DNA from: Acidimicrobiia bacterium
GTDB taxonomy: Bacteria > Actinomycetota > Acidimicrobiia > Acidimicrobiales > Aldehydirespiratoraceae
DNA length: 64,000 nucleotides
Assembly: GCA_021296315.1 (NCBI GenBank)
Contig: JAGWAO010000006.1
Coordinates: forward strand, 8,977 to 72,976
Direction of reading: 5' to 3'
Part shown: positions 5,252-61,793 of the stretch, piece by piece
Layout of the letters: each line of letters opens with the position of its first letter
Numbering within the stretch: the first letter of the stretch is position 1
The notes under the pieces: generated by a model
Database searches by the model: none
Told to the model about the DNA's origin: nothing
Seen by the model: only the letters and a program-made list of their open reading frames with translations
Translations under genes and position numbers: made by a program

Positions 5252-5348
5252 AGGCCGAGTGGGAGGGAGCTCCTAATGAGAGTCTTCGCGACAATCCGAG
5301 CGAGGCCGTGGCCCGAGCGGCCCGTGAGCGAAGCGAACAAGAGCGGGC
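5248..5348 (+). repeat. modular interspersed repeat, copy A
   Basis: ctagaggccgagtgggagggagc, a spacer, then cgagcgaggccgtggcccgagcggcccgtgagcgaagcgaacaagagcggg. The first TAG is the stop of the MgtE-like gene. Confidence 0.9.
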
Positions 5349-5405
5349 ACTACTGACAGGCAAGGTGTCGCGCTTGAGACCTACGATGACTTGAGGAGGG
5401 ACCTG

Positions 5406-7977: not shown

Positions 7978-8055
7978 AGCCGGCGGGCATCGCTTCTGCC
8001 GGCTTCGTGCGGCGCCGATCGTCCGATCTGGCCGCCGGCCAGGAGCGTCCGCAAA

Positions 8056-8192
8056 CTAGTGAGAGTCCGTCGTGTCGCAGCGGTGTCATTCCCGCTCTTG
8101 TTCGCTGCGCTCACGGGCCGCTCGGGCCGCGGCCTCGCTCCGCGCCTCCGCAGAATCGTCCACAGATCGCTCCCTATCCGCTCGGCCTCTAG
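8056..8192 (-). repeat. modular interspersed repeat, copy B (with 3' tail)
   Basis: The reverse complement reads ctagaggccgagcggatagggagc...gagcgaggccgcggcccgagcggcccgtgagcgcagcgaacaagagcgggaatg. It starts 5 nt after the ChbG-like stop on the same strand. Confidence 0.9.
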
Positions 8193-15982: not shown

Positions 15983-16966
15983 ATGGTCGCCGCCGGGGTC
16001 CACATCGTGCCGCTGATGCCGTCCGGCGACGTCATCGCGCTGGCCGTGGAAGCAGAGCGGCTCGGATACGACTACTGCCTGGTGGCCGACGAGGGGTTCC
16101 ATCCCGATGTCTACGCCTGCCTGGGAGCAATTGCCCGGGCCACCGACCGGATAGTCCTCGGTGTGCTGACCAACGCGTACACGCGGCATCCGGCGGTGAC
16201 CGCGGCCGCGGCCGCCACCGTCAATGAACTGTCCGGGGGTCGGCTGGTGGTCACCCTGCTGGCCGGAGGATCGATGGTGCTCAGCCCGATGGGAATCGAG
16301 CGATCCCGCCCCGCCCGGGTGGTGGCCGACTGCGTGCAAGTGCTGAAGCGGCTGTGGTCGGGCCGGGAGGTGAGCTGGAGTGGCCAGACCTGCTCCCTCG
16401 ATCGGGCCCGGCTCGGCATGGGACCCCAGCCGATCCCCATCTGGATCGCCAGCCGGGGACCGCGCCTGCTGGAGCTGGCCGGACGTCAGGCCGACGGCGT
16501 CATCCTCACCGTCAAGCCCGATCTCGGCGCCGCTCTCAATCTCGTGGAGTCGGCCGCAGCGATGGCCGGTCGTCGCGAGCCTCAGCGCTTCTACCTGGGG
16601 CGGATCTGCTACACGCCGAAGCTGCTGGAAGGTCAGCGCCGAACGCTTTCGTTCGTGCTGATGGACTCGCCCCGCCGGGTGCTGGAGTCGCTGGGCCTCA
16701 GTGCCGACGAGATCGCGGTCGTGGAGCACGCCGCCGGAGCGAACCGTCCCGAGTTCGTCGACGAACTGGTGACCGGCGACCTGCTCCAGCGCTACCAGGT
16801 GTCCGGCACACCCACCGAGTGCCGGGCCGAGGTTGAGCAGTTGGCTGGCCGGCACGGCCTGGACGGCGTGCTGATCGACGCGCTGTCATCGGATCTCTCC
16901 GAGAACCTCGCCGTGCTGGAAGAGTCCCTGCCCCTCATCGGTGACGCCCAGAGGCCGAGCGGGTAG
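15983..16966 (+). CDS. LLM class F420-dependent oxidoreductase (Mer-like)
   Basis: ATG 15983. Motifs LGYDYCLVADEGFH, LGVLTNAYTRHP, GRLVVTLLAGG, ADGVILT. The last five codons and the TAG stop lie inside repeat copy C. Confidence 0.8.
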   Translation: MVAAGVHIVPLMPSGDVIALAVEAERLGYDYCLVADEGFHPDVYACLGAIARATDRIVLGVLTNAYTRHPAVTAAAAATVNELSGGRLVVTLLAGGSMVLSPMGIERSRPARVVADCVQVLKRLWSGREVSWSGQTCSLDRARLGMGPQPIPIWIASRGPRLLELAGRQADGVILTVKPDLGAALNLVESAAAMAGRREPQRFYLGRICYTPKLLEGQRRTLSFVLMDSPRRVLESLGLSADEIAVVEHAAGANRPEFVDELVTGDLLQRYQVSGTPTECRAEVEQLAGRHGLDGVLIDALSSDLSENLAVLEESLPLIGDAQRPSG

Positions 16967-17049
16967 GCGGCAATGCGTGAGAGTCCTGGTGGGGTGCTCA
17001 GCGAGGCCGTGGCCCGAGCGGCCCGTGAGCGCAGCGAACAAGAGCGGGA
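16948..17049 (+). repeat. modular interspersed repeat, copy C
   Basis: ccagaggccgagcgggtaggcggc...cagcgaggccgtggcccgagcggcccgtgagcgcagcgaacaagagcggga. The second TAG is the stop of the LLM gene. Confidence 0.9.
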
Positions 17050-17121
17050 TACACCACGCTGCATCGTGTGGGGCCATCACCGCCGCGGCGGGGCTGCCGC
17101 CCGGCCCTAGCATCTGCTCCT

Positions 17122-20247: not shown

Positions 20248-20326
20248 CCGCCGTCAGCTGAGGATGAGGCCGCCGTCAGCTGAGGATGAGGCCGCCGTCA
20301 GCTGAGGATGAGGCCGCCGTCAGCTG
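20248..20326 (-). repeat. 22-bp tandem repeat, 3.6 copies, copying the 3' end and stop codon of the SDR gene
   Basis: ccgccgtcagctgaggatgagg occurs at 20248, 20270 and 20292, plus a partial copy at 20314-20326. The functional TGA (20298-20300) is in the third copy. Confidence 0.9.
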
Positions 20327-21080
20327 CCTCGATGGCTTGGCCGGTCAGGTAGCGGGCGTCGTCGCTGGCCAGGAAGGCGACGACCCCGGCGATCTCCTCC
20401 GGGCGGGCCAGCCGCTTGACCGCGGTGTCGTTGGCCCGCATGTCCAGCCACTCCTCGGCGGTCATGTCCAGCGTGGCCCCGATCTCGGCCGCCACCTTGC
20501 GCACCATGTCGGTGAGGGTGTTGCCGGCGCACACCGCATTGACGGTGATGCCGTGAGGCCCCAGTTCCATGGCGGCCGAGCGGGTGATGCCGACCACGCC
20601 GCTCTTGGTGCCCGAGTACTCCGCCGAGAGGGGCCAGCTCGTCTTGGCGGCCATGGACGCGATGTTGATGATCGAGCCCCGCCCCTGAGCGGTCATGACC
20701 GGCGCGGCCAGGCTGTTGGAGACGAGGACCCCGGTCAGGTTGACGGCAACGATGTCCTCCCAGCGGTCGAGAGGGATCTCCCGCAGCGGTCCCCCCACAT
20801 AGATCCCCGCGCAGGCGACCAGCACGTCGATGCGGCTCCACGCCTCCATCACCCGGTCGAAGGCGGCCTGCTGGTCCTCGCTGGACCGCACGTCGCACCT
20901 CAGGGCCATCGATTCGACCCCCTCGGACCGAACGGCGTCGGCCGTGGCGTCGTTGTCGGCCTCGTTGATGTCGAGGCAGGCGACGTTGGCTCCCTCAGCC
21001 GCGAAGCGGCGAGCGGTGGCCGCCCCGATACCGGTAGCAGAGCCGGTGATGACCACAACCTGCCCGGTGAACCGCCTCAT
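20298..21080 (-). CDS. SDR family oxidoreductase (FabG-like)
   Basis: VVVITGSATGIGAATA, NIASMAA, YSGTKSG (YxxxK), and a C-terminal ..YLTGQAIEADGG tail. Confidence 0.85.
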   Translation of the reverse strand: MRRFTGQVVVITGSATGIGAATARRFAAEGANVACLDINEADNDATADAVRSEGVESMALRCDVRSSEDQQAAFDRVMEAWSRIDVLVACAGIYVGGPLREIPLDRWEDIVAVNLTGVLVSNSLAAPVMTAQGRGSIINIASMAAKTSWPLSAEYSGTKSGVVGITRSAAMELGPHGITVNAVCAGNTLTDMVRKVAAEIGATLDMTAEEWLDMRANDTAVKRLARPEEIAGVVAFLASDDARYLTGQAIEAADGGLILS

Positions 21081-21124
21081 CGTGCGACCCTACCAGTACG
21101 GCAAATGACGGCTGACCGCGCCCG

Positions 21125-25637: not shown

Positions 25638-26441
25638 GTGCGGGTCGTCACCTGGAACGTGAACTCCCTGAAGGCGCGCCTCGGCCGGGTGCAGCGCTGG
25701 ATCGAGTCCTTCTCGCCGGATGTGGTGTGCCTGCAGGAGACCAAACTCGCCGACGACGCGTTTCCCGGGCTGGCCTTCCAGTCGCTCGGATACGACTGCT
25801 TCCACAACGGGGAGGGACGCTGGAACGGTGTAGCGGTGCTGAGCAGGGTGGGGCTCACCGACCCAGTGGCCGGATTCGGGGCCGGCATCGAGCCCGACTG
25901 TGACGCCCGCCTGGCCTGGGCCACCTGCGGGGGCGTGCGGGTGGCGTCGTGCTACGTGCCCAACGGTCGGGCCGTCGGCCATGACCACTACCACTACAAG
26001 CTCGACTGGATGCGCCGGCTGAGAGCCTCCCTCGACGCTCAGGCCGATCCCGGTCGGCCCGTCCTGGTGTGCGGCGACTTCAACATCGCTCCCGACGATA
26101 GGGACGTGTACGACCCGGCCGCCTTCACCGACACCACCCACACCAGCGCGCCGGAGCGGGAGAGGCTCGCGGGCCTGCTCGAATGGGGCCTGGTCGATGT
26201 GTTCCGCGACCACCATGATGACGGCGGGCTGTTCACGTGGTGGGACTACCGGGGAGGCGACTTCCACAAGCGCAAGGGAATGCGCATCGACCTCGTTCTG
26301 GCCTCCCGGCCGGTCGCCGACGCGGCCAGCTTTGCGCTCATTGACCGCAATGAGCGCAAAGGCCCCAAGGACGATCCTCCCAGCGACCACGCGCCCCTGT
26401 TCATCGACTTGGAGGCCGAGCGGATGGGCGGCAACTGGTGA
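25638..26441 (+). CDS. xthA: exodeoxyribonuclease III
   Basis: MRVVTWNVNSLKARL..VVCLQETK..GDFNIAP..WWDYR..RIDLVL..PSDHAPL. The last nine codons and the stop are encoded by repeat copy D. Confidence 0.9.
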   Translation: MRVVTWNVNSLKARLGRVQRWIESFSPDVVCLQETKLADDAFPGLAFQSLGYDCFHNGEGRWNGVAVLSRVGLTDPVAGFGAGIEPDCDARLAWATCGGVRVASCYVPNGRAVGHDHYHYKLDWMRRLRASLDAQADPGRPVLVCGDFNIAPDDRDVYDPAAFTDTTHTSAPERERLAGLLEWGLVDVFRDHHDDGGLFTWWDYRGGDFHKRKGMRIDLVLASRPVADAASFALIDRNERKGPKDDPPSDHAPLFIDLEAERMGGNW

Positions 26442-26510
26442 GAACAGTTGAGGGGTGCCGAGCGAGGCCGTGGCCCGAGCGGCCCGTGAGCGCAGCGAAC
26501 GGGAGCGGGA
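26410..26510 (+). repeat. modular interspersed repeat, copy D
   Basis: ttggaggccgagcggatgggcggc...cgagcgaggccgtggcccgagcggcccgtgagcgcagcgaacgggagcggga. Overlaps the xthA 3' end. Confidence 0.9.
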
Positions 26511-26583
26511 GTGGCGCCGGCGCCAAGCGACGGGCTGTCACCCGTTCGCGCTCGCACCTGGACGAGGGCACCCTGGCGAAACC

Positions 26584-30576: not shown

Positions 30577-30677
30577 CTAGAGGCCGAGCGGACCGGTTTG
30601 AAGTTCGACACGGGTCTCGCACCATGCCGAGCGAAGCCGTGGTCCGAGCGGCCCGTGAGCGCAGCGACAGGAGCGGG
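30577..30677 (+). repeat. modular interspersed repeat, copy E
   Basis: ctagaggccgagcggaccgg...cgagcgaagccgtggtccgagcggcccgtgagcgcagcgacaggagcggg. Lies in the divergent helicase/zincin intergenic region. Confidence 0.9.
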
Positions 30678-30745
30678 CGACAACGGCCTCGCACCCCATA
30701 CGGCGAGCACCGTCCGGCGCACAGCTGACCGGTACTGTCTGGCCG

Positions 30746-32671: not shown

Positions 32672-32852
32672 GCGGGGACGCTACTTATGTGCTGCCGCCG
32701 GCTCATGTTCAGACGCTACATGCGCGCCACGCCCGCTCATTCCAGGACGCTAGCGGCAGGCGGGGATGGCCGCGGCCGGGGTCCGCGCCGCCCAGCACCG
32801 GCGCATGTACCTTGCGGCCGTCGCATCACCCACGAACGATTGGGACTAGCTG

Positions 32853-35285
32853 ATGAACGTCGCTACCGGTGCAATGGTTGTCGCGGTCCTGCTTGCGTCG
32901 CTGATCGCTCCGTCGACCGCTCTGGCCCAGGCCGAGGAGCCGGTCGACCGTGAGGCGCTGGTGGGGTTCTTCGTTGCGACCGGAGGCGACACTTGGGGTC
33001 GGAGCGACAACTGGGGCTCGGATCTGCCGCTGGATCGGTGGCACGGAGTGGGCACCGACAGCGCGGGCCGGGTGGTGAGCCTGGCCCTGCCGTCCAACGG
33101 GCTCGTCGGGCCGATCCCAGCATCGATCGGCAGCCTCACCCGCCTGGAGCACCTGGATCTCGCCGACAACGACGTGTACGGGGAGATCCCCGCCGAAATC
33201 GGCGATCTGGCAAACCTGATCCACCTGGACCTCCACAACAACCGGCTGGACCGCCCCATCCCCCCCGAGGTCGGCAGCCTCGCCGCATTGGAGGTGCTGG
33301 ACCTCAAACACAACCATCTGTCAGGGGCGATACCAGCCGAGGTCGGCAACCTCGCCAGCCTCAGGATCCTCGACCTGCGAGGCAACGGCCTCTCCCGCCA
33401 GGTGCCGGACTCGCTCGGCGGGCTCTCCAGCCTCACCCGCCTGGTGCTCAGCGGCAACCGGCTGTCCGGAGGGATGCCGCCAGAGCTGGGAAGCCTGGGC
33501 AGCCTCGTGTGGCTGGACATGAGCCGCAACTCGCTGTCGGGTGACATCCCGCCCGAGATGGGTGACCTCGCCAACCTGACCTGGCTCGATCTCAGCAGCA
33601 ACTACCTCTCGGGCCAGGTTCCACCTGAGCTGGGCCGCCTGTCGCACCTCAGGACGCTCAGCCTGTGGCTCAACGGGCTGACCGGGGAGATCCCCCCGGA
33701 GTTGGGCGACTTGGCCGCGCTCGAGGATCTGAGCCTGAGCCTCAACGATCTGTCCGGCACGATCCCGCCCGAACTGGGGAGGTTGACCGCACTGCGGCTG
33801 CTGCGGCTCGGGCACAACCAGCTGTCGGGCTCGATTCCCGCCGAGTTCGGCAAGCTCGGTGGCCTGCGGTACCTCTGGCTCGAGGACAACGAGTTGTCGG
33901 GAGCCATTCCGGCGGAGTTGGGCGATCTGCACGGCCTCAAGGGTCTCTGGCTCGAGGGCAACCGGCTGTCCGGCTCCATACCCGACGAGATAGGCCGACT
34001 TCGGTGGCTGCGGAGGATGTATCTCCACGACAACCGGCTGTCGGGCGACATCCCAGCCTCGATCGGGGAACTGTCCCGCCTGGAGGAGCTTCGCCTGGAC
34101 GGCAACGAGCTGACGGGCGAGCTGCCGGCAGCTCTGGGCGAACTCAGCAACCTCGAGCGCATGAACCTGGCCGACAACTGGCTCTTTGGGGAGATTCCCT
34201 CCCAGATTGCGAACCTCGGAAGGTTGCAGATCCTGCGGCTGAACGACAACGAGCTGAAGGGGCCCATCCCCGCCGGCATTGGCCGCCTGACCCGACTCAC
34301 AGAACTCGATCTGCACGACAACGCACTCACTGGGCCGATTCCCGCGGGGATCGGCAAGTTGGGCGAGCTCAGGCGCCTGCGGCTCCACAACAACCGGCTG
34401 TCGGGGGGGATCCCGCCCGGCATCGGCAGGCTCGCAGAGCTCTCAGTCCTCGATCTGAGTGACAACCGTCTGTCGGGCGCAATACCCGAGAGCCTGGGAG
34501 ACCTCTCGAACCTCACGCAGCTGATCCTCCGCGAGAATCAGCTGGTGGGGGAGATTCCCGCGTCGCTAGCCCGCCTCGGCCGCCTCGAGTGGCTGGACCT
34601 CAGTCTCAACCAGCTGCACGGGCCGATCCCGCCCGGAGTGGGCGACCTCGCGAGCCTTGAAGCCTTATACCTCAGCTTCAACTTCCTGGACGGGGAGATC
34701 CCCGAAGAGTTCGGAAACCTCGCCAACCTCAAGATCCTGAAGCTCCGCTGGAACGAGCTCTCCGGCGAGATTCCCGCCCAGCTCGGCGACCTGAGCAGCC
34801 TCCGGCAGTTGAACCTGTGGCACAACCGTCTCACTGGGCCGATCCCGCCCGAGCTCGGCCGTCTTGTGAACCTGACCCGGCTCGACCTCGACGGCAACGA
34901 GCTGTCGGGCGAGATCCCCGAGGAGCTCGGCAACCTCAGCCTGCTGACGGAGCTGTGGCTCACGGGCAACGACCTGTCCGGCGGGATCCCCGCTGAGCTG
35001 GGCCGCCTTACCGGGTTGAGGCGCCTGTATCTCGACGGCAACCGCCTCACCGGCGCGATACCGGCTGGGCTGGCGAACCTGGCTGGCCTTAGGAGGCTGT
35101 GGCTCCAGGACAATGAGCTGTCGGGCGAGATTCCCACCCGATTGGGCGGCTTGACCGGCCTGGAGCAGATCTTCCTCGGCGGCACCAACGCGCTGGACGG
35201 ATGCCTACCAGCGGCGTGGGAGTCGCTCGACACCTTGGTTGGCGACTTGGACACGCTGGGCCTGGAGTTCTGCGCCGTCTCCTAG
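32853..35285 (+). CDS. secreted leucine-rich repeat protein, plant-specific-type 24-residue LRRs
   Basis: Signal peptide MNVATGAMVVAVLLASLIAPSTALAQA. LRRNT-like cap (..WGSDLPLDRWHGVGTDSAGRVVSLAL). Then 29 uninterrupted repeats of LxxLxLxxNxLSGxIPxELGxLxx. Confidence 0.85.
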   Translation: MNVATGAMVVAVLLASLIAPSTALAQAEEPVDREALVGFFVATGGDTWGRSDNWGSDLPLDRWHGVGTDSAGRVVSLALPSNGLVGPIPASIGSLTRLEHLDLADNDVYGEIPAEIGDLANLIHLDLHNNRLDRPIPPEVGSLAALEVLDLKHNHLSGAIPAEVGNLASLRILDLRGNGLSRQVPDSLGGLSSLTRLVLSGNRLSGGMPPELGSLGSLVWLDMSRNSLSGDIPPEMGDLANLTWLDLSSNYLSGQVPPELGRLSHLRTLSLWLNGLTGEIPPELGDLAALEDLSLSLNDLSGTIPPELGRLTALRLLRLGHNQLSGSIPAEFGKLGGLRYLWLEDNELSGAIPAELGDLHGLKGLWLEGNRLSGSIPDEIGRLRWLRRMYLHDNRLSGDIPASIGELSRLEELRLDGNELTGELPAALGELSNLERMNLADNWLFGEIPSQIANLGRLQILRLNDNELKGPIPAGIGRLTRLTELDLHDNALTGPIPAGIGKLGELRRLRLHNNRLSGGIPPGIGRLAELSVLDLSDNRLSGAIPESLGDLSNLTQLILRENQLVGEIPASLARLGRLEWLDLSLNQLHGPIPPGVGDLASLEALYLSFNFLDGEIPEEFGNLANLKILKLRWNELSGEIPAQLGDLSSLRQLNLWHNRLTGPIPPELGRLVNLTRLDLDGNELSGEIPEELGNLSLLTELWLTGNDLSGGIPAELGRLTGLRRLYLDGNRLTGAIPAGLANLAGLRRLWLQDNELSGEIPTRLGGLTGLEQIFLGGTNALDGCLPAAWESLDTLVGDLDTLGLEFCAVS
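33072..35159 (+). repeat. 72-bp coding tandem array (29 LRR units)
   Basis: Strict 24-codon periodicity read directly from the translation. It generates several long spurious ORFs in other frames. Confidence 0.85.
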
Positions 35286-35336
35286 CGGCCAGGCGTGGCC
35301 GCTGCCGGTTCGTGGACATATAGTCTCCGTCGACAA

Positions 35337-35439
35337 CCAAGACCGGGGAGCTCGGGACAGCCGGGCTGAGAGGGCACCCACGCGATCGCCGCGGTGTCGA
35401 CCCGCCGACCTGATCTGGGTAATGCCAGCGGAGGAAGGC
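35337..35439 (+). promoter_or_regulatory. TPP (THI-box) riboswitch
   Basis: ggggagc..gggctgagag..acccgccgacctgatctgggtaatgccagcggaggaagg matches the THI element core (CUGAGA, ACCUGAUCUGGAUAAUGCCAGCG). Its 3' end contains the GGAGGAAGG SD of the downstream ABC binding protein. Confidence 0.85.
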
Positions 35440-35441
35440 CC

Positions 35442-36551
35442 ATGGATCACCAATCCCAACCAACTCCGATTCACCCGAGCGCGCCCCGTCGCACGAGCAG
35501 TCGACGGATCTGGGCGATGGCGGTCGCCGCAGCCGCGTTGGCCGTGTTGGCCGGGGCGTGCAGCGGTGACCGCTCCGATGACCCCGTGGACCTCTCGGGC
35601 ACCACGGTGACGCTGCTCACCCACGACTCGTTCTACGTCTCGCCCGAGACCTTCGAGGCGTTCACCGCGTCGACCGGCATCGTGGTGGAGCAGCTCGCCT
35701 CGGGCGATGCCGGTGAGCTGGTGGCCCAGGCGTGCCTGACTGCCGGCAAGCCGCTCGGAGACGTGCTGTTCGGGATCGACAACACGTTCCTGCAGCGCGG
35801 TCTCGACTGCGGCATGTTCGAGCCCTATACGTCGCCCAATCTCGCCGATGTGCCTGACCATTTCGAGCTCGATCCGGAGCACCGAGTCACTCCCATCGAC
35901 TACGGCGATGTGTGCCTCAACTACTGGGTCGACTCCTTCGACGGCTCAACGGCCCCGCCGTCGTCCCTCGACGATCTGATCGACCCCGCCTACGCAGGCA
36001 TGCTCGTCGTGCAGAGCCCAGAGACCTCGTCGCCGGGACTGGCCTTCCTGCTGGCCACCATCGCCCGTTACGGCGAAGGCTGGGAGGACTACTGGGCCGC
36101 GCTGCGCGACAACGGCGTGTCGGTCACCGCGGGCTGGGAGGACGCCTACTACGGCGAGTTCGCCGCCGGCGGCGGCAACCGGCCGATCGTGGTGTCGTAC
36201 GCGTCCAGCCCGCCCGCCGAGGTGATGTTCGCCGACCCGCCCGTTGATGAGCCGCCAACGGGAGTGGTGACCGCCAGCTGCTACCGCCAGATCGAGTTCG
36301 CCGGGGTGCTCTCCGGTGCCGGCAATCCGGTCGGCGCACAGGCCCTGATCGACTTCATGCTCACGCCGACGTTCCAGAACGACGTTCCGCTCAACATGTT
36401 CGTCTTCCCGGTCATCACAACTGCCACCCTCCCGGACGCGTTCGTCGAGCACGCCGAGATGGCGGACGATCCGTTCATTCTTGAGCCCGCCCAGGTCGAG
36501 GCCCAGCGCAACGCCTGGACGGACCGGTGGGTGGAGATAGTCCTGCGCTGA
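35442..36551 (+). CDS. thiamine/TPP-type ABC transporter substrate-binding lipoprotein
   Basis: ATG 35442 lies after the riboswitch SD. Lipobox LAGACSG. Fe3+/thiamine-type periplasmic binding protein fold. The riboswitch context supports a thiamine-related substrate. Confidence 0.8.
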   Translation: MDHQSQPTPIHPSAPRRTSSRRIWAMAVAAAALAVLAGACSGDRSDDPVDLSGTTVTLLTHDSFYVSPETFEAFTASTGIVVEQLASGDAGELVAQACLTAGKPLGDVLFGIDNTFLQRGLDCGMFEPYTSPNLADVPDHFELDPEHRVTPIDYGDVCLNYWVDSFDGSTAPPSSLDDLIDPAYAGMLVVQSPETSSPGLAFLLATIARYGEGWEDYWAALRDNGVSVTAGWEDAYYGEFAAGGGNRPIVVSYASSPPAEVMFADPPVDEPPTGVVTASCYRQIEFAGVLSGAGNPVGAQALIDFMLTPTFQNDVPLNMFVFPVITTATLPDAFVEHAEMADDPFILEPAQVEAQRNAWTDRWVEIVLR

Positions 36552-46957: not shown

Positions 46958-47018
46958 AGGACGGCAGCTTAAAGCGAGCGCGGACCGGTGGGAAGTCTGT
47001 AGCGTCGTTGCAGCGCCA

Positions 47019-47122
47019 TTCCCGCTCCTGTTCGCTGCGCTCACGGACCGCTCGGGCCACGGCCTGGCTGTACGCCTCACGAATTCGTCCACTGGCCGCA
47101 ACCTCTCCGATCGGCCTCCTGG
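47019..47122 (-). repeat. modular interspersed repeat, copy F
   Basis: The reverse complement reads ccaggaggccgatcggagagg...ccaggccgtggcccgagcggtccgtgagcgcagcgaacaggagcgggaat. Lies upstream of the small 46957 ORF on the same strand. Confidence 0.85.
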
Positions 47123-54542: not shown

Positions 54543-54634
54543 CGTCAGAACGCGGTTGAGGGCGAGAGGTGGCCTGCGCCCTCGACGGTATGGTTGTCGG
54601 TTGCATCAACGAGATACCACGCACGGAGGAGCCG

Positions 54635-54925
54635 ATGCCGGCAGAAACCCACGTGGAGCAGGCACCCATGGGGCGTGAGGAAGTCTTGGCGCTCATTCGC
54701 GACCGTCTTGCGGACATCCTCGAGATCGATCCCTCCGACATCGCCGAGGGAGCCTCGTTTGCCGACGACCTCGATGCCGACTCGCTCGCGCTCATAGAGC
54801 TGGTGGAGGGGATCGAGGAGGAGCTGGCGGAGCGTGCGGTCGGCTTTCGCATCGAGGACGAGGATCTGGAAGACCTGCGTTCCGTCCGAGATGCCGTTGA
54901 CTACGTCGTAGCGAAGCTGGGTTGA
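54635..54925 (+). CDS. acpP: acyl carrier protein
   Basis: ATG 54635 follows GGAGGA. Phosphopantetheine attachment motif DLDADSLALIELV. Confidence 0.85.
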   Translation: MPAETHVEQAPMGREEVLALIRDRLADILEIDPSDIAEGASFADDLDADSLALIELVEGIEEELAERAVGFRIEDEDLEDLRSVRDAVDYVVAKLG

Positions 54926-55617
54926 CAGCTCAGGCCGCTTCGGCGGACACTGCGACGCTGATGGACCGGCTTGGCCACCGGTTCGATGACGCCGCGTTGC
55001 TCGAGTTGGCCTTGACCCATCGCTCCTGGAGCGCGGAGCACTCGGGATCGTCCTCCAATGAGCGGCTGGAGTTCCTCGGAGACGCTGTCCTGGGCCTTGT
55101 CGTGACCCAGAGGCTCTACTCGCGTTTCGGCGAATGGTCCGAAGGCGACCTGGCCAAGACCCGCGCCTCGCTCGTCAACTCGGCCATGCTGGCCGTGGTG
55201 GGCAGATCGATCGGCCTGGGCGACCTGCTGCGCCTGGGCCGGGGGGAGGTCGCTTCGGGAGGCCGCGAGAAGTCCTCGATCCTGGCCGACGCGATTGAGG
55301 CGGTGATCGGGGCGGTATATCTCGACGGCGGCATCGGCGCGGCCGACAATGCCGTCGGCCGACTCCTCGGCTCGCGCATCGATGCAGCTGCCCGCGCTCC
55401 CGGCCACGCCGACTTCAAGACAAGGCTCCAGGAACTGGCGGCCCGTCTAGGATTCGCCCCGCCGGTCTACGAAGTGACCACCAGCGGGCCTCCGCACGAC
55501 ACGATGTTCGAAGCCAGGGTTCATGCCGGCACCGCCAGCGGCATCGGCAGGGGAAGCAGCAAGAAGGACGCCGAACAGCACGCGGCCGAGATCGCCTACG
55601 CGACTCTCGCCCCAGAG
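54922..55617 (+). CDS. rnc: ribonuclease III (catalytic plus dsRBD region; no stop codon of its own, the ORF continues in frame to 56655)
   Basis: ALTHRSW..NERLEFLGDAVL (signature), ADAIEAVIGAVYLD, dsRBD DFKTRLQE..GSSKKDAEQHAA. Start is TTG 54922 (TTGA overlap with the acp stop) or ATG 54961. Confidence 0.85.
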
Positions 55618-55757
55618 GCCCAGCGGCCCGTGAGCGCAGCGAACAAGAGCGGGCAATCAGAGGCCCAGCGGCCCGTGAGCGCAGCGAACAAGCGCAGCGA
55701 ACAAGAGCGGGCAATCAGAGGCCCAGCGGCCCGTGAGCGCAGCAAGAAGGAGCGGGC
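55613..55757 (+). repeat. three tandem truncated units of the interspersed repeat (copy G)
   Basis: Units of 45, 58 and about 42 bp: cagaggcc|cagcggcccgtgagcgcagcgaacaagagcgggcaat. The 5' module is joined directly to the core box. Unit 2 carries an extra 13-bp gcgcagcgaacaa duplication. Confidence 0.9.
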
Positions 55758-55791
55758 ACACCGAGTCCGACCGTGTTGCGGAGGTCAAGTC

Positions 55792-56655
55792 ATGAGCACA
55801 TCGCGCTCGAACCGGGGCCTCGCCTTCGAGCTGCCGGAAGTCGAGACGATACGGCGGGACCTCGAACGCGAGATCATCGGTCGCAAGGTCAAGACCGCAG
55901 AGGCCTCGAGCATGAAATGCCTGCGCCGCTACCACACCCGCAAGGCCTTCACCTCACAGTTGGAGGGAGCCAAGATCACCGACGTGAGGCGGGTGGGCCT
56001 GTACCTGATGATCGAGCTCAGCACCGAGATGCAGCTTGTGCTGTCGCTCGGCTCGTCGGGTTCGCCCCGCCGCAACGCCAACAAGCATCCCAGGGTCGCG
56101 GGCACCGAAGTGGTGATCTCTTTCACGCAGTACGGCCAGTTGCGCTTTGTGGACCCCGAGGGCACAGGTCAGCTGTTCGTGGTGCCTTGCGACGACTTCT
56201 CCACAGCCCTGCCGGATGTGGCTGAACTCGGCCTCGATCCGGTCGCCAAGCCGATCTCCTGGACCGAGATGGGTCGGCTTCTCCTGCAGAGGGACACGAA
56301 GCTCAAGACTCTGATCACCGACGACACATTCGTGGTCGGCATCGGCGACATCTACGCGGACGAGATCCTGTTCGAGGCGGGGGTGCGCTTCGACCGGATC
56401 GCCAACACCCTGTCCACTCAGGAGATCCGCCGCCTGCACCGGGCGCTCGTCGGCACGATGCACGACGCTATGAAGTACCGGGGGACGTCGGTCCCCGCTC
56501 GCCCCTTCGTCGATCCGTTCGGCCAGCCGGGCAGCTATGCGGGCCACCTCAAGGTATGGGGTCGGCACGGAGCGCTGAGCGAGAGGTCGAGGACTCCGAT
56601 CAAGCGGACCAAGTTCCGCGGCAGCTGGACCTACTACTGCGACACGCAGGTCTGA
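55792..56655 (+). CDS. Fpg/Nei-family protein, degenerate (no N-terminal Pro, zinc finger eroded)
   Basis: GGAGG then 7 nt then ATG 55792. ELPEVETIRRDL, H2TH GIGDIYADEILFEAGV, RGTS. The C-terminus WGRHGALSERSRTPI..YYCDTQV retains 1 of the 4 zinc-finger Cys. Confidence 0.75.
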   Translation: MSTSRSNRGLAFELPEVETIRRDLEREIIGRKVKTAEASSMKCLRRYHTRKAFTSQLEGAKITDVRRVGLYLMIELSTEMQLVLSLGSSGSPRRNANKHPRVAGTEVVISFTQYGQLRFVDPEGTGQLFVVPCDDFSTALPDVAELGLDPVAKPISWTEMGRLLLQRDTKLKTLITDDTFVVGIGDIYADEILFEAGVRFDRIANTLSTQEIRRLHRALVGTMHDAMKYRGTSVPARPFVDPFGQPGSYAGHLKVWGRHGALSERSRTPIKRTKFRGSWTYYCDTQV

Positions 56656-56730: not shown

Positions 56731-59700
56731 GTGTATCTGAAGACGCTGACGCTGAAGGGCTTCAAGTCCTTCGCCGAGCCGGCCTCGATCCGCTTGGAGC
56801 CGGGGGTCACAGTGGTCGTCGGCCCTAATGGAAGCGGCAAGTCGAACGTTGTGGACGCGGTGGCCTGGGTTCTGGGCGCCCAAGCGCCCAGCGCGGTGCG
56901 CTCCGCTCGGATGGACGATGTGATCTTCGCGGGCACGGCCCACAAGCCTGCACTGGGCCGGGCCGAGGTCTCGCTGACGATCGACAACTCCGACAGAATG
57001 CTGCCGATGGCGGCCAGCGAGGTGCGGATCACCCGCACCCTGTTCCGCAGCGGCGAGTCGACCTACGCGCTGAACGGCACCCCGTGCCGGCTGCTGGACA
57101 TCGTCGAGCTGCTCTCGGACACCGGCGTGGGCCGCCAGCAGCACATGATCGTGTCGCAGAGCCAGATAGACGCCGTTCTGAACGCCCGCCCCGCCGATCG
57201 CCGGGTGGTAGTGGAGGAGGCGGCCGGAATCCGCAAGTACCGCAAGAGGCGGGAGCGGGCCGAGCGCCGACTGCTCGCCAGCGACGGGGACCTGACCCGG
57301 ATGAGCGACCTCCTGAGGGAAGTGCGTCGGCGGCTGCGCCCCCTGCAGAAGCAGGCCGAGGCAGCCCGCCGGCATGCCGATCTGCTGTCCGAACTGGAGG
57401 CGCTGCGAGTGCACCTGGCCGGCCGCGAGATCGCCGGCATGCGCGAGCAACTGCGGCTCCACAAGGAGCAGGGGGAGGCTCAGGCGGTTCTGCAAGCCGA
57501 TCTTCGAGCCGAACTCGACGATCTCAACGCCAGCGTTGCCACCGACGAGCAGCGGCTGGCCCGCCACGGAATGGACGACCACTCAGAGCGCCTGGCCCGC
57601 CTCGAAGGGCTCCGGGCCAGAGCGGCCGGTCTGGCCGCCGTCGCGGTCGAGCGCCAGCGGGGCATCGAGCACCAGAGGGCCGCCCTCGCCGACCATGATC
57701 TGGCTGCGGGACTGCAAGCCGAGCTGGAGCGTTGCCGAAAGGAGCTCTCCGCGGTCGTGTTGTCGGCCGCGGCGGCCGACTCCGATCGCCGCCGTCTCGA
57801 GCATTTGCAGGAACGCTTGGAAGCCGACCGAGCCGCGTTTGGGGCCCGATGGGGCGACGTGATGGGGTTCGACGTCGGTATGGCGAGCGAGGCTGCCGAG
57901 GCCAGGGGCGAGCTGTCGGCGCTGCAGTCGACGATCGAGCTCAGCCAATCGGAGCAGCATCGCCTCGCCGAACGATTGGAGGAGTCCGAGCGTCGCCTGC
58001 AGGACTTGGCCGGGCGGGTTGACGACCACCGCGGCGAATTGGACCGGTGCGACCGGCGGATCGCGGCGCGGCGTGCGGAGCTCGCGGTGGCGGAGGCCGC
58101 TCTAGCTGATGCCTCGAGTGCGCTGGAAGGCGCGGTCGAGGCCCGTGCGGAGGCCGAGGGCGAATTGCGGCACTGGACCGCGAGGAGCGAGGCCCTCGCA
58201 ATGGCCCTCGAAGAGGCCGCCAGACCGGTGCCCGTCGATGTGCAGGCCGCGACCGATGACGTCTTGGGACTGCTGGGGGGCCTGGTGGAGGTGGATCCAG
58301 GCGTCGAAGCCGCCTTCGCGGCCGCGGCCGGCGACGCGATCAGCGCTGTCGTGGTGCGGCACGCCGCCACGGCCCGACGCGTGCTCGACAGCGTAGAGGC
58401 CAGCGATGCCGGCGCGGCGGTGATCGCCCTGGAGGGCAACGGCTCTGACGGCGCGACCGGTATGCCGGTGCACCGCCTCGGGCTGGAGCCGTTGCGGGGT
58501 CGTGTCCGCGCCGCCGATCCGGATGTGGACCGCCTCCTGGACGTGCTGCTCGCCTCCACGGCCCTCGTGGAGGGCGATTGGCGTACCGCGGCCGACACCT
58601 GGATGCGGCACGCCGGTGTTGTCGTGGTCACCCCGGCCGGCGACCGGTTGAGCAGCCGAGGTTGGCGACTCGGCGTGCACGGCGCGGCCGGGCTCCGGCC
58701 CGCGCTGGCAGAGGCCGAACAGCGGGTCGAGGCCGCGCGCAAGGCGCGTGAACGGGCCGATGCCGCCTGCGAATCAGCCCGGAGCGGACTGGACGAGAGT
58801 CGAGAAAGAGTCGACGAGTTCGGTGGTCGACTGGCCGCAATCGAAGGTTCCGCGGCGTCGGCGACCGACGCCATCAATCGCGCCGAGTCCGATCGCCGTG
58901 ACCTCGACACCGCGAGCAGCACCCTGCGCGACCACCTGACGGAGACAACCCGCCGTCTCGACGAGGCTGTCGGCAGGGCTGCACAGATCGAATCAAGGCT
59001 GCCCGAGTTGGAGCAGGCCGAGGCCAAGGCCCGACAGCGAAGCCGTGAGGCGGCTGAGGCCCGCTCATCCCTCGACCGGCGTGCATCCGAGGTGGCGTTG
59101 ATGGCCGCTGAGCAGAGCGCAACCGATGCCGGGCTGGAGCAGCGCCAGCAGATGCTGCAAGCCCGTGCTTCTGAATTGGAGGACCGGCTGGCTCGTCACC
59201 GTGCTTCGCGGGCCGCAGCCACCGATCGCATGGCCGGGCTGGAGCGCGAGGCGACCGTGCTCGACGCGCTCAGACGGGCGGTGGAGGAGCGGACGGGGAT
59301 CCTCAACGCGGGCCTAGCCGAGATCCGGGAGGTACGTCGCAGGCACTCAGAGGAGGTCCGGGCCCTGGCCGCGAGCCTCGACGACCTGCGACGCCGGCAT
59401 GCCGACGCCGAGAGTCGCTACGACACCCTGCGCCAGGCTGAGAGCCGCCGTGACATCGAGGAAGCCGAGCTGCGCACCTTGCTGCAGGGGGCGGTCGAGC
59501 GTCTGCGCGACGCCTACGGCCTGTCCCCGCAACAGGCAGCCTCCGCACCGTTGCCGGAACTGCCCGACGGACTCGGCCCCGACCAGCGGATGGATCAGCT
59601 GGCTGCCGAGTTGGAGATAATGGGTCCCGTCAATCCCCTGGCTCTGGCCGAGTACGACGAGCTCTACGAGCGTCACGAGTTGCTCAGCGGCCAGATGGAC

Positions 59701-60222
59701 GACATCCGGGCGGCCCGCAGGGACCTCAACAGGGTGATCCGGTCGATCGACGCGGAGATCAAGACGGTGTTCAGCTCGGCCTTCGTCGATGTGGCCGCCA
59801 ACTTCGAGGTGCTCTTCGAGGCGCTGTTCCCGGGTGGCGAGGGGCGCCTCAGCCTCACCGAACCCGATGACCTGCTCGATACCGGCATCGAGATCTCGGC
59901 CAAGCCGTCAGGCAAGAACGTGAAGCGGCTGTCGCTGCTCTCGGGCGGGGAGCGGACCTTGGCCGCGCTGGCCTTCCTGTTCGCGGTGTTCCGTAGCCGG
60001 CCTTCGCCCTTCTATGTGATGGACGAGGTGGAGGCCGCTCTCGACGATGTCAACCTCCATCGCTTCCTGAAGCTCATAGACGAGTTTCGCACCGATGCAC
60101 AGCTCGTGATCGTCACCCACCAGAAGCGGACCATGGAGGCTGCCGACTGCCTGCAAGGGGTCTCGATGAAGCCCGGCGGCTCTTCCATGGTCGTGTCCGA
60201 GCGCGTCTCCGACGCCGCCTGA
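56731..60222 (+). CDS. smc: chromosome segregation protein SMC
   Basis: GTG start gives (M)YLKTLTLKGFKSF..GPNGSGKSN. Long coiled coils. Signature LSGGERTLAALAFLFA and Walker B FYVMDEVEAALD. Confidence 0.93.
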   Translation: MYLKTLTLKGFKSFAEPASIRLEPGVTVVVGPNGSGKSNVVDAVAWVLGAQAPSAVRSARMDDVIFAGTAHKPALGRAEVSLTIDNSDRMLPMAASEVRITRTLFRSGESTYALNGTPCRLLDIVELLSDTGVGRQQHMIVSQSQIDAVLNARPADRRVVVEEAAGIRKYRKRRERAERRLLASDGDLTRMSDLLREVRRRLRPLQKQAEAARRHADLLSELEALRVHLAGREIAGMREQLRLHKEQGEAQAVLQADLRAELDDLNASVATDEQRLARHGMDDHSERLARLEGLRARAAGLAAVAVERQRGIEHQRAALADHDLAAGLQAELERCRKELSAVVLSAAAADSDRRRLEHLQERLEADRAAFGARWGDVMGFDVGMASEAAEARGELSALQSTIELSQSEQHRLAERLEESERRLQDLAGRVDDHRGELDRCDRRIAARRAELAVAEAALADASSALEGAVEARAEAEGELRHWTARSEALAMALEEAARPVPVDVQAATDDVLGLLGGLVEVDPGVEAAFAAAAGDAISAVVVRHAATARRVLDSVEASDAGAAVIALEGNGSDGATGMPVHRLGLEPLRGRVRAADPDVDRLLDVLLASTALVEGDWRTAADTWMRHAGVVVVTPAGDRLSSRGWRLGVHGAAGLRPALAEAEQRVEAARKARERADAACESARSGLDESRERVDEFGGRLAAIEGSAASATDAINRAESDRRDLDTASSTLRDHLTETTRRLDEAVGRAAQIESRLPELEQAEAKARQRSREAAEARSSLDRRASEVALMAAEQSATDAGLEQRQQMLQARASELEDRLARHRASRAAATDRMAGLEREATVLDALRRAVEERTGILNAGLAEIREVRRRHSEEVRALAASLDDLRRRHADAESRYDTLRQAESRRDIEEAELRTLLQGAVERLRDAYGLSPQQAASAPLPELPDGLGPDQRMDQLAAELEIMGPVNPLALAEYDELYERHELLSGQMDDIRAARRDLNRVIRSIDAEIKTVFSSAFVDVAANFEVLFEALFPGGEGRLSLTEPDDLLDTGIEISAKPSGKNVKRLSLLSGGERTLAALAFLFAVFRSRPSPFYVMDEVEAALDDVNLHRFLKLIDEFRTDAQLVIVTHQKRTMEAADCLQGVSMKPGGSSMVVSERVSDAA

Positions 60223-60322
60223 TCCGGCGACCAGTCGAGGTCCTGCTGCCAAGGCTGGTAGTCGCCCGCCACTACCGAACATGCGCGGGCAGGTGCAAAC
60301 CCGTCGCGTCGGGGCGGGTGTC

Positions 60323-60414
60323 TCCCGCTCTCGCTCGCTGCGCTCACGGGCCGCTCGGGCCACGGCCTCGCCTGGATGAACCTGATTCGCTTGCCTACCC
60401 GCTCGGCCTCTAGC
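60323..60414 (-). repeat. modular interspersed repeat, copy H
   Basis: The reverse complement reads gctagaggccgagcgggtaggcaagc...ggcgaggccgtggcccgagcggcccgtgagcgcagcgagcgagagcggga. Lies between smc and the htrA-like gene, antisense to both. Confidence 0.9.

Positions 60415-60450: not shown

Positions 60451-61793
<1,343 letters not shown>

What the first reader, a model, noticed from the sequence alone, without database searches (positions are those of the whole stretch)
54922..56655. rnc has no stop codon: three tandem truncated repeat units bridge it in frame to the fpg-like gene (577-aa ORF)
RNase III homology ends near 55617 (..AEIAYATLAPEA). It is followed by three tandem repeat units (45/58/~42 bp) that happen to be open in the rnc frame (QRPVSAANKSGQSEAQRPVSAANKRSEQERAIRGPAARERSKKER..). 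The frame then runs into the Fpg-like domain. rnc-fpg adjacency is the normal actinobacterial arrangement. The novelty is the loss of the rnc stop, with the module TAG replaced by CAG and read in a different frame. The locus also has the look of a VNTR, with unequal unit lengths and an internal 13-bp duplication. An internal GGAGG-N7-ATG at 55792 could still give a separate Fpg-like protein.
Basis: seen in the sequence. Interest (0 to 1): 0.65.

Follow-up and report, generated by a model that had tools for sequence, protein, structure and literature searches.

The report
Repeat array fuses rnc and fpg
A 13-base duplication inside a fast-changing repeat array at the end of the RNase III gene pushes its stop codon out of frame, so the gene runs into its neighbour. 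About 70 related genomes keep the two genes separate, so this is most likely a recent mutation or an assembly variant, not a selected fusion protein.

Summary
ORF 54922-56655 (577 aa) joins an intact RNase III to an Fpg-like protein through three tandem units (45/58/44 bp) of a repeat that also has seven dispersed full-length copies in the window.

The native rnc stop is the TGA of an ATGA overlap with the Fpg-like start codon (55792-55795). It is still present but out of frame. Deleting one copy of the perfect 13-bp duplication (55678-55703) restores a 286-aa RNase III ending ...AEVKS* on that TGA, as in relatives.

Relatives are sponge-associated Acidimicrobiales at 80-93% protein identity:
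- They carry 0, 1, 2 or 3 units at this site.
- RNase III is 220-293 aa, with non-conserved tails read in different unit frames.
- The Fpg-like protein is called separately (287 aa), starting at the homologous ATG.
- None of 70 RNase III clusters lacks a stop.

So this is a hypervariable, MIRU-VNTR-like junction. It parallels ETR-F/VNTR3239 between rnc and fpg1 in M. tuberculosis.

The fusion is probably an incidental +1 frameshift. A real mutation and an assembly or consensus variant cannot be told apart here.

The Fpg-like protein lacks the catalytic Pro2 and the zinc finger. Interest is modest.

The parts
54569..54925 (+). Acyl-carrier-protein-like gene. Its TGA overlaps the rnc TTG start (TTGA at 54922-54925).
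   Evidence: Pfam PP-binding. Same gene order in L001, L002 and L120-L123.
54922..55620 (+). RNase III proper: catalytic domain plus dsRBD, through ...AEIAYATLAPEA. The last 8 nt (CAGAGGCC) are also the first bases of repeat unit 1.
   Evidence: Pfam hits. TIGR02191 scores 229 bits against a cutoff of 166. 89% identity to P0240. Junction alignment.
55613..55657 (+). Repeat unit 1 (45 bp): CAGAGGCC joined to the element core AGCGGCCCGTGAGCGCAGCGAACAAGAGCGGGCAAT. Read as EAQRPVSAANKSGQS.
55658..55715 (+). Repeat unit 2 (58 bp): a 45-bp unit plus the 13-bp internal duplication.
55678..55703 (+). Perfect 13-bp tandem duplication (AGCGCAGCGAACA x2). This is the +1 frameshift that takes the rnc stop out of frame.
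   Evidence: TRF, 100% match. In-silico removal of either copy gives a 286-aa RNase III ending ...VAEVKS* at TGA 55793-55795. The duplication junction is absent from 122 related loci.
55716..55759 (+). Repeat unit 3 (about 44 bp, diverged 3' half). Read in the other open frame as RGPAARERSKKERAH.
55760..55791 (+). Unique spacer holding the Shine-Dalgarno GGAGG (55780-55784), 7 nt before the ATG. In the ancestral frame it encodes ...SDRVAEVKS, the tail type seen in relatives (EVKS, GVKS, EVRS).
55792..55795 (+). ATGA: start codon of the Fpg-like gene overlapping the ancestral rnc stop TGA (-4 overlap, translational coupling). The TGA is now out of the rnc frame.
   Evidence: Same ATGA/GTGA overlap in L002, L120, L122 and L124. 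48 of 70 relatives' RNase III end in Ser, as expected from TC(A/G)TGA.
55792..56655 (+). Fpg/Nei-superfamily protein (287 aa). It has Phe in place of the catalytic Pro2, a 12-aa N-terminal leader and no Cys4 zinc finger.
56731..60222 (+). smc, the next gene of the conserved plsX-acpP-rnc-fpg-smc cluster.
   Evidence: Synteny.

Best explanation
The site is the junction of two translationally coupled genes. In the ancestral state rnc ends on the TGA of an ATGA that also starts the downstream Fpg-like gene.

A dispersed repeat of about 135-150 nt, abundant in sponge-associated Acidimicrobiales, colonised this junction. It has since been truncated, duplicated and deleted there, giving a VNTR-like array.

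Ribosomes translating rnc simply read through whatever array is present. This produces a non-conserved C-terminal tail on RNase III. The arrangement is harmless as long as the array length stays 0 mod 3, so that the overlapping TGA is reached.

In this genome a perfect 13-bp tandem duplication in unit 2, most simply replication slippage, adds +1. The new frame happens to be open over the remaining roughly 90 nt and coincides with the Fpg-like frame, so the predicted product is a 577-aa RNase III-linker-Fpg-like polypeptide.

The Shine-Dalgarno sequence and ATG at 55780-55794 are intact, so free Fpg-like protein can probably still be made by internal initiation. No free RNase III would be made.

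Shown: the anatomy, the frame arithmetic and the comparison with relatives. Inferred: slippage as the mechanism, expression of the fusion, and internal initiation. The fusion is read as an incidental recent event, not a selected architecture.
For: Frame arithmetic:
- Removing one 13-bp copy restores a 286-aa RNase III that stops on TGA 55793-55795.

Junction panel (sizes are relative to the empty site in L120):
- L120: empty site, TCATGA overlap.
- L122: +66 nt, one 65-bp unit, in frame, GTGA overlap kept.
- L124: +69 nt, overlap kept.
- L123: three units with indels; rnc stops on a TGA inside unit 3.
- Window: +166 nt (1 mod 3), no stop.

Relatives:
- All 70 RNase III cluster representatives of the clade that could be scored (KKxAEQ motif found, of the 75 best hits) have a stop.
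- 48 of them have the minimal 16-aa tail; 19 have tails of 18-70 aa.
- Tail sequences are not conserved and use different unit frames.
- More than 100 Fpg-like homologs at 80-93% identity are called separately, mostly 287 aa, starting at the homologous ATG.

Recency: units 1 and 2 and the two 13-mers are 100% identical.

Arrays elsewhere: tandem arrays of the same 43-45-bp core occur at other, intergenic sites in relatives. Examples are L011 (x7), L091 (x4), L116 and L068.

Precedent: the M. tuberculosis rnc-fpg1 spacer is a complex VNTR (PMC2734929). MIRUs insert at start codons and keep a -4 coupling (PMC12548453).
Against: - No reads, and no genome of the same species, are available. The 13-bp duplication cannot be confirmed as real or as fixed.
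- One distant relative (P0001 in L001, 47% identity, circular 3.59-Mb contig at 35x) also has rnc and the Fpg-like gene as one 619-aa ORF with a different linker. A fusion may therefore be tolerated, or even favoured, in some lineages.
- Nothing here shows what is actually translated.
Confidence: 0.72

Rival explanations
1. Assembly or consensus artefact. The true genome, or the majority allele in the population, lacks the 13-bp duplication or differs by an indel in the array, so rnc ends normally on the ATGA overlap.
For: A single change of -13 (or any -1 mod 3) restores exactly the arrangement of the relatives. All 70 relatives have a stop. Many other rnc+fpg 'fusions' in the protein database carry obvious frameshift scars from MAG assemblies, for example P0005-P0008, P0010 and P0017. 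Tandem repeats are hard for assemblers.
Against: A perfect 13-bp tandem duplication is not a typical base-calling or homopolymer error. The whole array is under 200 bp and is spanned by ordinary reads. Real indels of many sizes are evidently frequent at this site in relatives.
Confidence: 0.25
2. Selected bifunctional fusion (Rosetta-stone case). RNase III and the Fpg-like pseudo-glycosylase act together, and covalent linkage is advantageous in this lineage.
For: The gene pair is conserved and translationally coupled by a -4 overlap across the clade. A second single-ORF case exists, P0001. The Fpg-like protein needs no free N-terminal proline and already tolerates N-terminal leaders of 2-37 aa.
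Against: The window is the only one of 71 close genomes with the fusion. The linker is raw repeat sequence read in two frames, and the causal duplication shows zero divergence, so it is very recent. In 1.84 billion cluster representatives only a handful of the 150 best-scoring hits match the query in two stretches and are long enough to hold both domains. P0001 is the only confirmed fused member of this Fpg-like clade (sequence).
Confidence: 0.05
3. Phase-variable contingency switch. Slippage in the array reversibly toggles between the coupled two-protein state, a truncated-tail state and the fused state, which modulates RNase III and Fpg-like output.
For: The unit lengths (45, 58, 65, 13 bp) are not all multiples of three. 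All three outcomes (overlap kept, internal stop, fusion) are seen among relatives. In M. tuberculosis, repeat length at the rnc-fpg1 spacer correlates with fpg1 mRNA (PMC2734929).
Against: Variation is shown only between species, not within a population. Units of 45-65 bp slip far less often than the 1-8-bp repeats of classical contingency loci. Most relatives (48 of 70) have no array at all.
Confidence: 0.07

Closest known systems
ETR-F / VNTR3239 in the rnc-fpg1 (Rv2925c-Rv2924c) spacer of the Mycobacterium tuberculosis complex (Olsen et al. 2009, PMC2734929)
   Same: The same gene junction (rnc then fpg) in another actinobacterial lineage. A complex array of unequal units (55 and 79 bp there; 45, 58 and 65 bp here). 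Copy number varies between isolates or species. Relatives outside the clade have only 1-20 bp, or an overlap, between the two genes.
   Different: In M. tuberculosis the array is intergenic: it starts 40 bp after the rnc stop and ends at the fpg1 start. Here it lies inside the rnc reading frame, is translated as a C-terminal tail, and in this genome removes the stop from the frame. Sequence relatedness of the two repeat families could not be tested. Mtb Fpg1 is an active glycosylase; the protein here lacks Pro2 and the zinc finger.
MIRUs (mycobacterial interspersed repetitive units)
   Same: Dispersed units of 40-100 bp that form VNTRs. They sit at junctions of co-oriented genes. An ORF through the unit stays coupled to the downstream gene with a -4 overlap (PMC12548453). 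That is exactly the state seen in L122 and L124, and in the window after removing the 13 bp.
   Different: The dispersed copies here occur in both orientations and also between divergent or convergent genes (3 of 7 in the window). The full element is longer (about 135-150 nt) and has a variable central segment. Homology to MIRU was not tested.
REP/BIME, ERIC and Correia (NEMIS)-type high-copy intergenic repeats and MITEs
   Same: Roughly one copy per 9 kb. Intergenic. A conserved core shared by many species. Some copies can fold with the 5' GCGGATAGG segment pairing to a 3' CCTATCCGC segment.
   Different: Terminal inverted repeats are weak: mean score 7.6 against 6.8 for the control, and only 6 of 95 copies score clearly. 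No target-site duplication was established. No covariation was found. No Rfam family matches.
Gene fusions created by frameshifts at overlapping stop/start (ATGA) junctions
   Same: A +1 shift upstream of an ATGA overlap puts the upstream gene into the downstream frame. Other actinobacterial rnc+fpg single ORFs exist in databases (P0012-P0014, P0076, P0083, P0001).
   Different: Here the shift comes from a 13-bp duplication within a repeat array, not from a point indel, and about 58 codons of repeat-derived and spacer linker are included.

Membership tests
Bacterial class 1 RNase III (rnc) | RNase III catalytic domain with the ERLEFLGD signature, plus a C-terminal dsRBD | tested here: met
   Pfam Ribonucleas_3_3 (1.6e-36) and dsrm (7.8e-14). 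TIGR02191 scores 229 bits against a cutoff of 166. NERLEFLGDAVLG is present.
Bacterial class 1 RNase III (rnc) | Free-standing protein of about 220-250 aa with its own stop codon | tested here: not met
   There is no in-frame stop before 56653. 70 of 70 clade relatives do have one.
Fpg/MutM (formamidopyrimidine-DNA glycosylase equivalog) | N-terminal Pro (Pro2 after Met removal) as the catalytic nucleophile | tested here: not met
   Phe12 aligns with the Pro, and the MutM alignment begins at E13 = MutM E2/E3. The position is F, Y or L in 115 of 115 homologs, after leaders of 2-37 aa.
Fpg/MutM (formamidopyrimidine-DNA glycosylase equivalog) | C-terminal Cys4 zinc finger | tested here: not met
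   No zf-FPG_IleRS hit. There is one Cys in the last 30 aa in 115 of 115 homologs. MutM CKRC...CPRC aligns with SERS...CDTQ.
Fpg/MutM (formamidopyrimidine-DNA glycosylase equivalog) | Score above the NCBIfam equivalog cutoff | tested here: not met
   NF002211: 188 bits, below 212. TIGR00577: 184 bits, below 203.
Fpg/Nei superfamily (fold level) | Fapy_DNA_glyco N-terminal domain plus H2TH domain | tested here: met
   Pfam 6e-22 and 2e-18. PDB MutM chains match at E = 1.6e-37 over residues 13-284.
MIRU-VNTR-type interspersed repeat | Units of 40-100 bp, dispersed in the genome and locally tandem | tested here: met
   Units of 45, 58 and 44 bp here. Seven dispersed copies in 64 kb. Arrays of 43-45-bp units occur in relatives.
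MIRU-VNTR-type interspersed repeat | Copy number differs between strains | tested here: inconclusive
   Between species the count is 0, 1, 2 or 3 units at this site. No genome of the same species was available.
MIRU-VNTR-type interspersed repeat | The unit carries an ORF that keeps stop/start overlap (-4) with the flanking genes of an operon | tested here: met
   L122 and L124 keep the GTGA overlap through the inserted unit. The window does so once the 13-bp duplication is removed.
MIRU-VNTR-type interspersed repeat | Same orientation as the flanking co-directional genes | tested here: not met
   Three of the 7 window copies are antisense to their neighbours or lie between divergent or convergent genes. 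55 of 103 copies have no same-strand ORF ending nearby.
MIRU-VNTR-type interspersed repeat | Sequence homology to the mycobacterial MIRU or ETR-F consensus | not testable with these tools
MITE | Terminal inverted repeats and a target-site duplication | tested here: inconclusive
   TIR score 7.6 against 6.8 for the control; only 6 of 95 copies score 12 or more. Own versus non-own 5'/3' duplex energy gives p = 0.06. No consistent flanking duplication was seen.
Conserved RNase III-Fpg two-domain architecture | The fusion recurs in related genomes | tested here: not met
   Only P0001 (47% identity) belongs to this Fpg-like clade. The close relatives all have two genes.

The most novel reading that the evidence does not exclude
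The fused 577-aa ORF is real and expressed. Taken together with the independent single-ORF case P0001 and the clade-wide -4 translational coupling, it would be Rosetta-stone evidence that RNase III and the catalytically disabled Fpg-like protein form a physical and functional pair in Acidimicrobiia. One possibility is a nucleic-acid-binding pseudo-glycosylase acting as an RNase III partner. The repeat array would then act as a slippage-driven switch between coupled and covalently linked states.
Probability: 0.07. Interest if true: 0.65.

Novelty: new variant of a known kind. Interest (0 to 1): 0.33.

Why it matters
- A second, independent actinobacterial lineage has turned the rnc-fpg junction into a repeat-driven hypervariable site. 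M. tuberculosis ETR-F/VNTR3239 is the known case. This suggests that tightly coupled ATGA junctions, or this junction in particular, are permissive landing and expansion sites for interspersed repeats.
- It gives a clean natural series of outcomes at one site: empty site; in-frame insertion with the overlap kept; internal stop; full ORF fusion. The series illustrates how repeat turnover can create C-terminal tails and occasional gene fusions.
- For annotation, the 577-aa 'bifunctional' protein should not be propagated as a domain architecture.
- Two by-products may be more interesting than the fusion itself. One is an apparently undescribed high-copy repeat with a near-invariant core of about 50 nt, shared by many sponge-symbiont Acidimicrobiales. 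The other is a conserved Fpg-like family that lacks both the catalytic proline and the zinc finger.

Tried and rejected
- tRNA-derived element. The 5' GGCCGAGCGG resembles a class II tRNA D-arm, but ARAGORN finds nothing in the window and no cloverleaf is conserved. Rejected.
- Known RNA family. There is no Rfam hit on the element at gathering score or at E <= 1.
- Structured RNA. RNAalifold on 7 and on 86 copies found no compensatory pairs of note. Own versus non-own 5'/3' duplex energies were marginal, p = 0.06.
- MITE with TIRs and a TA duplication. This was suggested by a few copies (L018, L049), but it is not general.
- 'TAG of the module is the upstream stop codon'. True for only 13 of 103 copies, and the triplet is NAG.
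- Element relic in the L001 (P0001) linker. There is a 13-nt identity (GGCCCGTGAGCGC), but no nhmmer hit. Not claimed.
- Metagenome scan for more junctions found no confirmed relatives.
- The first full-length protein search missed the close homologs. They appeared only when the two halves were searched separately.
- The closest relatives' 8-kb blocks from the DNA scan (L068, L097) end just short of the junction. The junctions were recovered through the look-up of encoding contigs instead.
Full report
**1. Observation**

The window has a single ORF, 54922..56655 (+), TTG start, 577 aa.

Pfam places the domains as follows:
- Ribonucleas_3_3 and Ribonuclease_3 at aa 23-147.
- dsrm at aa 166-229.
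- Fapy_DNA_glyco at aa 303-417.
- H2TH at aa 436-524.

Between the two halves lie three tandem units that start at 55613, 55658 and 55716, with spacing 45 and 58. TRF reports period 58, 100% matches, score 222. It also reports a perfect 13-bp duplication, AGCGCAGCGAACA x2.2, at 55678-55705.

GGAGG (55780-55784) lies 7 nt before ATG 55792.

**2. The units belong to a dispersed repeat**

The 21-mer core occurs 10 times in the window against 0.03 expected. Seven of these are full-length copies on both strands, all in intergenic space or overlapping gene ends.

The consensus is: NAGAGGCCGAGCGGATAGGCG, a variable segment of 10-30 nt, then GCGAGGCCGTGGCCCGAGCGGCCCGTGAGCGCAGCGAACAAGAGCGGGA, then a looser 3' part of about 45 nt.

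The rnc-fpg units are internally deleted forms, in which the 5' tip CAGAGGCC is joined to the core.

A scan of one genome per species found the 19-mer in more than 116 8-kb blocks. Almost all are Acidimicrobiales MAGs: Ca. Aldehydirespirator, Ca. Poriferisodalis and sponge-derived 'Acidimicrobiaceae' bins. These are the sponge-symbiont families Aldehydirespiratoraceae (UBA11606) and Poriferisodalaceae (TK06) (PMC11706023).

The window is 82-91% identical in DNA to several Ca. Aldehydirespirator genomes.

Tandem arrays of 43-45-bp core units recur at other, intergenic sites in these genomes: L011 x7, L091 x4, L116 x3, L068 x3.

**3. What the junction looks like in relatives**

Searching the two halves separately gave many close homologs:
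- More than 100 Fpg-like proteins at 80-93% identity. Nearly all are called as separate proteins of 287 aa (also 281, 282 and 277 aa) that start at the homologous ATG.
- RNase III proteins at 67-89% identity, 220-293 aa long.

Junction DNA from five relatives:

| Locus | State at the junction | How rnc ends |
|---|---|---|
| L120 | No unit | ...TSEAHS*, on TCATGA |
| L121 | No unit, unrelated 43-nt spacer | Own TGA upstream of the spacer |
| L122 | One 65-bp unit, +66 nt | In frame; ...SGQSEAQS* on GTGA |
| L124 | +69 nt | ...GVKS* on GTGA |
| L123 | Three units with indels | TGA inside unit 3, 38 nt before the ATG |
| L002 (58% identity, more distant) | Plain ATGA overlap | On the ATGA |

For 70 RNase III cluster representatives of the clade (the 70 of the 75 best hits in which the KKxAEQ motif could be located):
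- All 70 have a stop codon.
- 48 have the minimal 16-aa tail after KKxAEQ.
- 48 end in Ser, as TC(A/G)TGA predicts.
- 19 have tails of 18-70 aa.

The longer tails are not conserved. They use different frames of the unit, RPVSAA... in one frame and ERAIRG... in the other.

**4. Cause of the missing stop**

The ancestral rnc stop is the TGA in tcATGAgc at 55793-55795. It is intact.

The array adds 166 nt relative to the empty site, which is 1 mod 3. Deleting either copy of the 13-bp duplication gives a 286-aa RNase III ending ...RPVSAARRSGHTESDRVAEVKS* on exactly that TGA. That matches the EVKS, GVKS and EVRS tails of relatives.

Of the three sense frames of a unit, one contains TGA (CCG TGA) and two are open. 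After the +1 shift the remaining roughly 29 codons happen to be open, and the new frame is the Fpg-like frame.

- The element's first triplet is NAG: TAG 32, CAG 27, AAG 20, GAG 10 of 103 copies.
- It coincides with an upstream stop codon in only 13 of 103 copies.
- Relatives that do have an rnc stop carry the same CAGAGGCC at this site.

Units 1 and 2, and the two 13-mers, are identical to each other, so these events are recent. The duplication junction occurs in none of the 122 related loci.

**5. Likely consequences (inferred)**

- From the rnc start: a fusion of about 63 kDa, consisting of intact RNase III, about 58 aa of repeat- and spacer-encoded linker, the 12-aa Fpg-like leader, and the Fpg-like body.
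- From the Shine-Dalgarno sequence and ATG at 55780-55794: probably free 287-aa Fpg-like protein.
- Termination-reinitiation coupling would be lost.

A canonical Fpg would be inactivated by any N-terminal extension, because its nucleophile is the terminal proline. That is established knowledge of Fpg/Nei enzymes. This protein already lacks that proline:
- F12 aligns with Pro, and E13 aligns with MutM E2/E3.
- It has one Cys where MutM has four in the zinc finger, and it falls below both NCBIfam Fpg cutoffs.
- All 115 homologs examined have F, Y or L at that position, no Cys4 finger, and leaders of 2-37 aa.

An N-terminal fusion is therefore not obviously destructive to whatever this protein does.

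**6. Is the fusion a selected architecture?**

One distant relative has a single 619-aa ORF with an unrelated linker: P0001 in L001, 47% identity, on a circular 3.59-Mb contig.

Other rnc+fpg single ORFs in the database fall into two groups:
- Some carry frameshift scars, for example P0005-P0008.
- Others join a canonical (M/V)PELPEVE Fpg in frame, for example P0012-P0014, P0076 and P0083.

Against 1.84 billion cluster representatives, only a handful of the best 150 hits match the query in two stretches and are long enough to hold both domains. With 70 of 70 close relatives unfused, the window's state is a singleton.

**7. Comparison with what is known**

The closest precedent is at the same junction in another actinobacterium. 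The rnc-fpg1 spacer of the M. tuberculosis complex is the complex VNTR known as ETR-F or VNTR3239:
- Its units are 55 and 79 bp, and the spacer is 279-358 bp long.
- It varies between isolates.
- Its length correlates with fpg1 mRNA.
- Other mycobacteria have only 1-20 bp between the two genes (PMC2734929).

MIRUs are described as inserting at start codons, so that an ORF in the unit remains coupled to the downstream gene at -4 (PMC12548453). This is the behaviour seen in L122 and L124, and in the window after removing the 13 bp.

The differences here:
- The array lies inside the rnc ORF.
- The dispersed element occurs in both orientations.
- Homology to the mycobacterial repeats could not be tested.

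MITE-type and structured-RNA readings of the element were tested and remain unsupported.

**8. Verdict**

The locus is a MIRU-VNTR-like hypervariable junction. The ORF fusion is best explained as an incidental +1 frameshift from a 13-bp duplication.

Whether that duplication is a fixed mutation, a population variant or an assembly artefact cannot be decided without reads. I put the artefact or minor-allele possibility at about 25%.

Novelty: a new variant of a known kind. Interest is modest, about 0.33. A functional RNase III/Fpg-like partnership is not excluded, at about 7%.

Noticed in passing
window 5249-5390(+), 8045-8191(-), 16949-17090(+), 26410-26550(+), 30578-30720(+), 46974-47120(-), 60266-60412(-); many copies in L004-L119: A high-copy dispersed repeat, about one copy per 9 kb. 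Its core of about 50 nt (GCGAGGCCGTGGCCCGAGCGGCCCGTGAGCGCAGCGAACAAGAGCGGGA, with a recurring GAGCG pentamer) is near-invariant in 86 copies from more than 20 Acidimicrobiales species of at least two sponge-symbiont families. There is no Rfam family, no clear TIRs and no covariation. Its function and its mode of spread are unknown, and no description was found in the literature searched.
   Followed up: partly
window 55792-56655 and homologs P0121-P0239: A conserved Fpg/Nei-superfamily protein encoded next to rnc. It has Phe or Tyr in place of the catalytic Pro2, no Cys4 zinc finger, and substitutions at the MutM intercalating and phosphate-binding positions. All 115 homologs examined share this. 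It is probably not a glycosylase, and its role is unknown.
   Followed up: partly
window 35334-35453 (+): A TPP riboswitch-like match (52.9 bits, gathering score 54.3, E = 1.6e-7, full model length). It lies just upstream of, and overlaps the start of, a solute-binding-protein ORF (35370-36551).
   Followed up: no
window 32850-35285 (+): An 811-aa leucine-rich-repeat protein with 72-bp DNA periodicity. This is a eukaryotic-like protein class reported as enriched in sponge symbionts.
   Followed up: no
window 20248-20326 and 60717-60755: Two perfect short tandem repeats. One is 22 bp x3.6, at or overlapping the 3' end of a short-chain dehydrogenase gene (20298-21089, minus strand). The other is 15 bp x2.6, inside the HtrA-like protease gene.
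   Followed up: no
L122 1799-1852 and 3882-3939; L124 1305-1516; L121/L068 230-430: In relatives the same element, single or in arrays, also occupies the plsX-acpP, acpP-rnc and fpg-smc spacers and the region upstream of plsX. The whole plsX-acpP-rnc-fpg-smc cluster is peppered with it.
   Followed up: partly
L002 10001-10993 (P0003); P0252; P0254: Other lineages carry unrelated in-frame tandem repeats in the same gene pair: SEALTEPPEK x3 inside the Fpg-like protein, VRPES-type repeats in one RNase III tail, and an ASQAGRNAA duplication in another.
   Followed up: no
window 26410-26441: The gene ending at 26441 reads 10 codons into a full-length element copy and stops on the TGA in that copy's variable segment. 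This is another case of the repeat supplying a gene's C-terminus and stop codon.
   Followed up: partly
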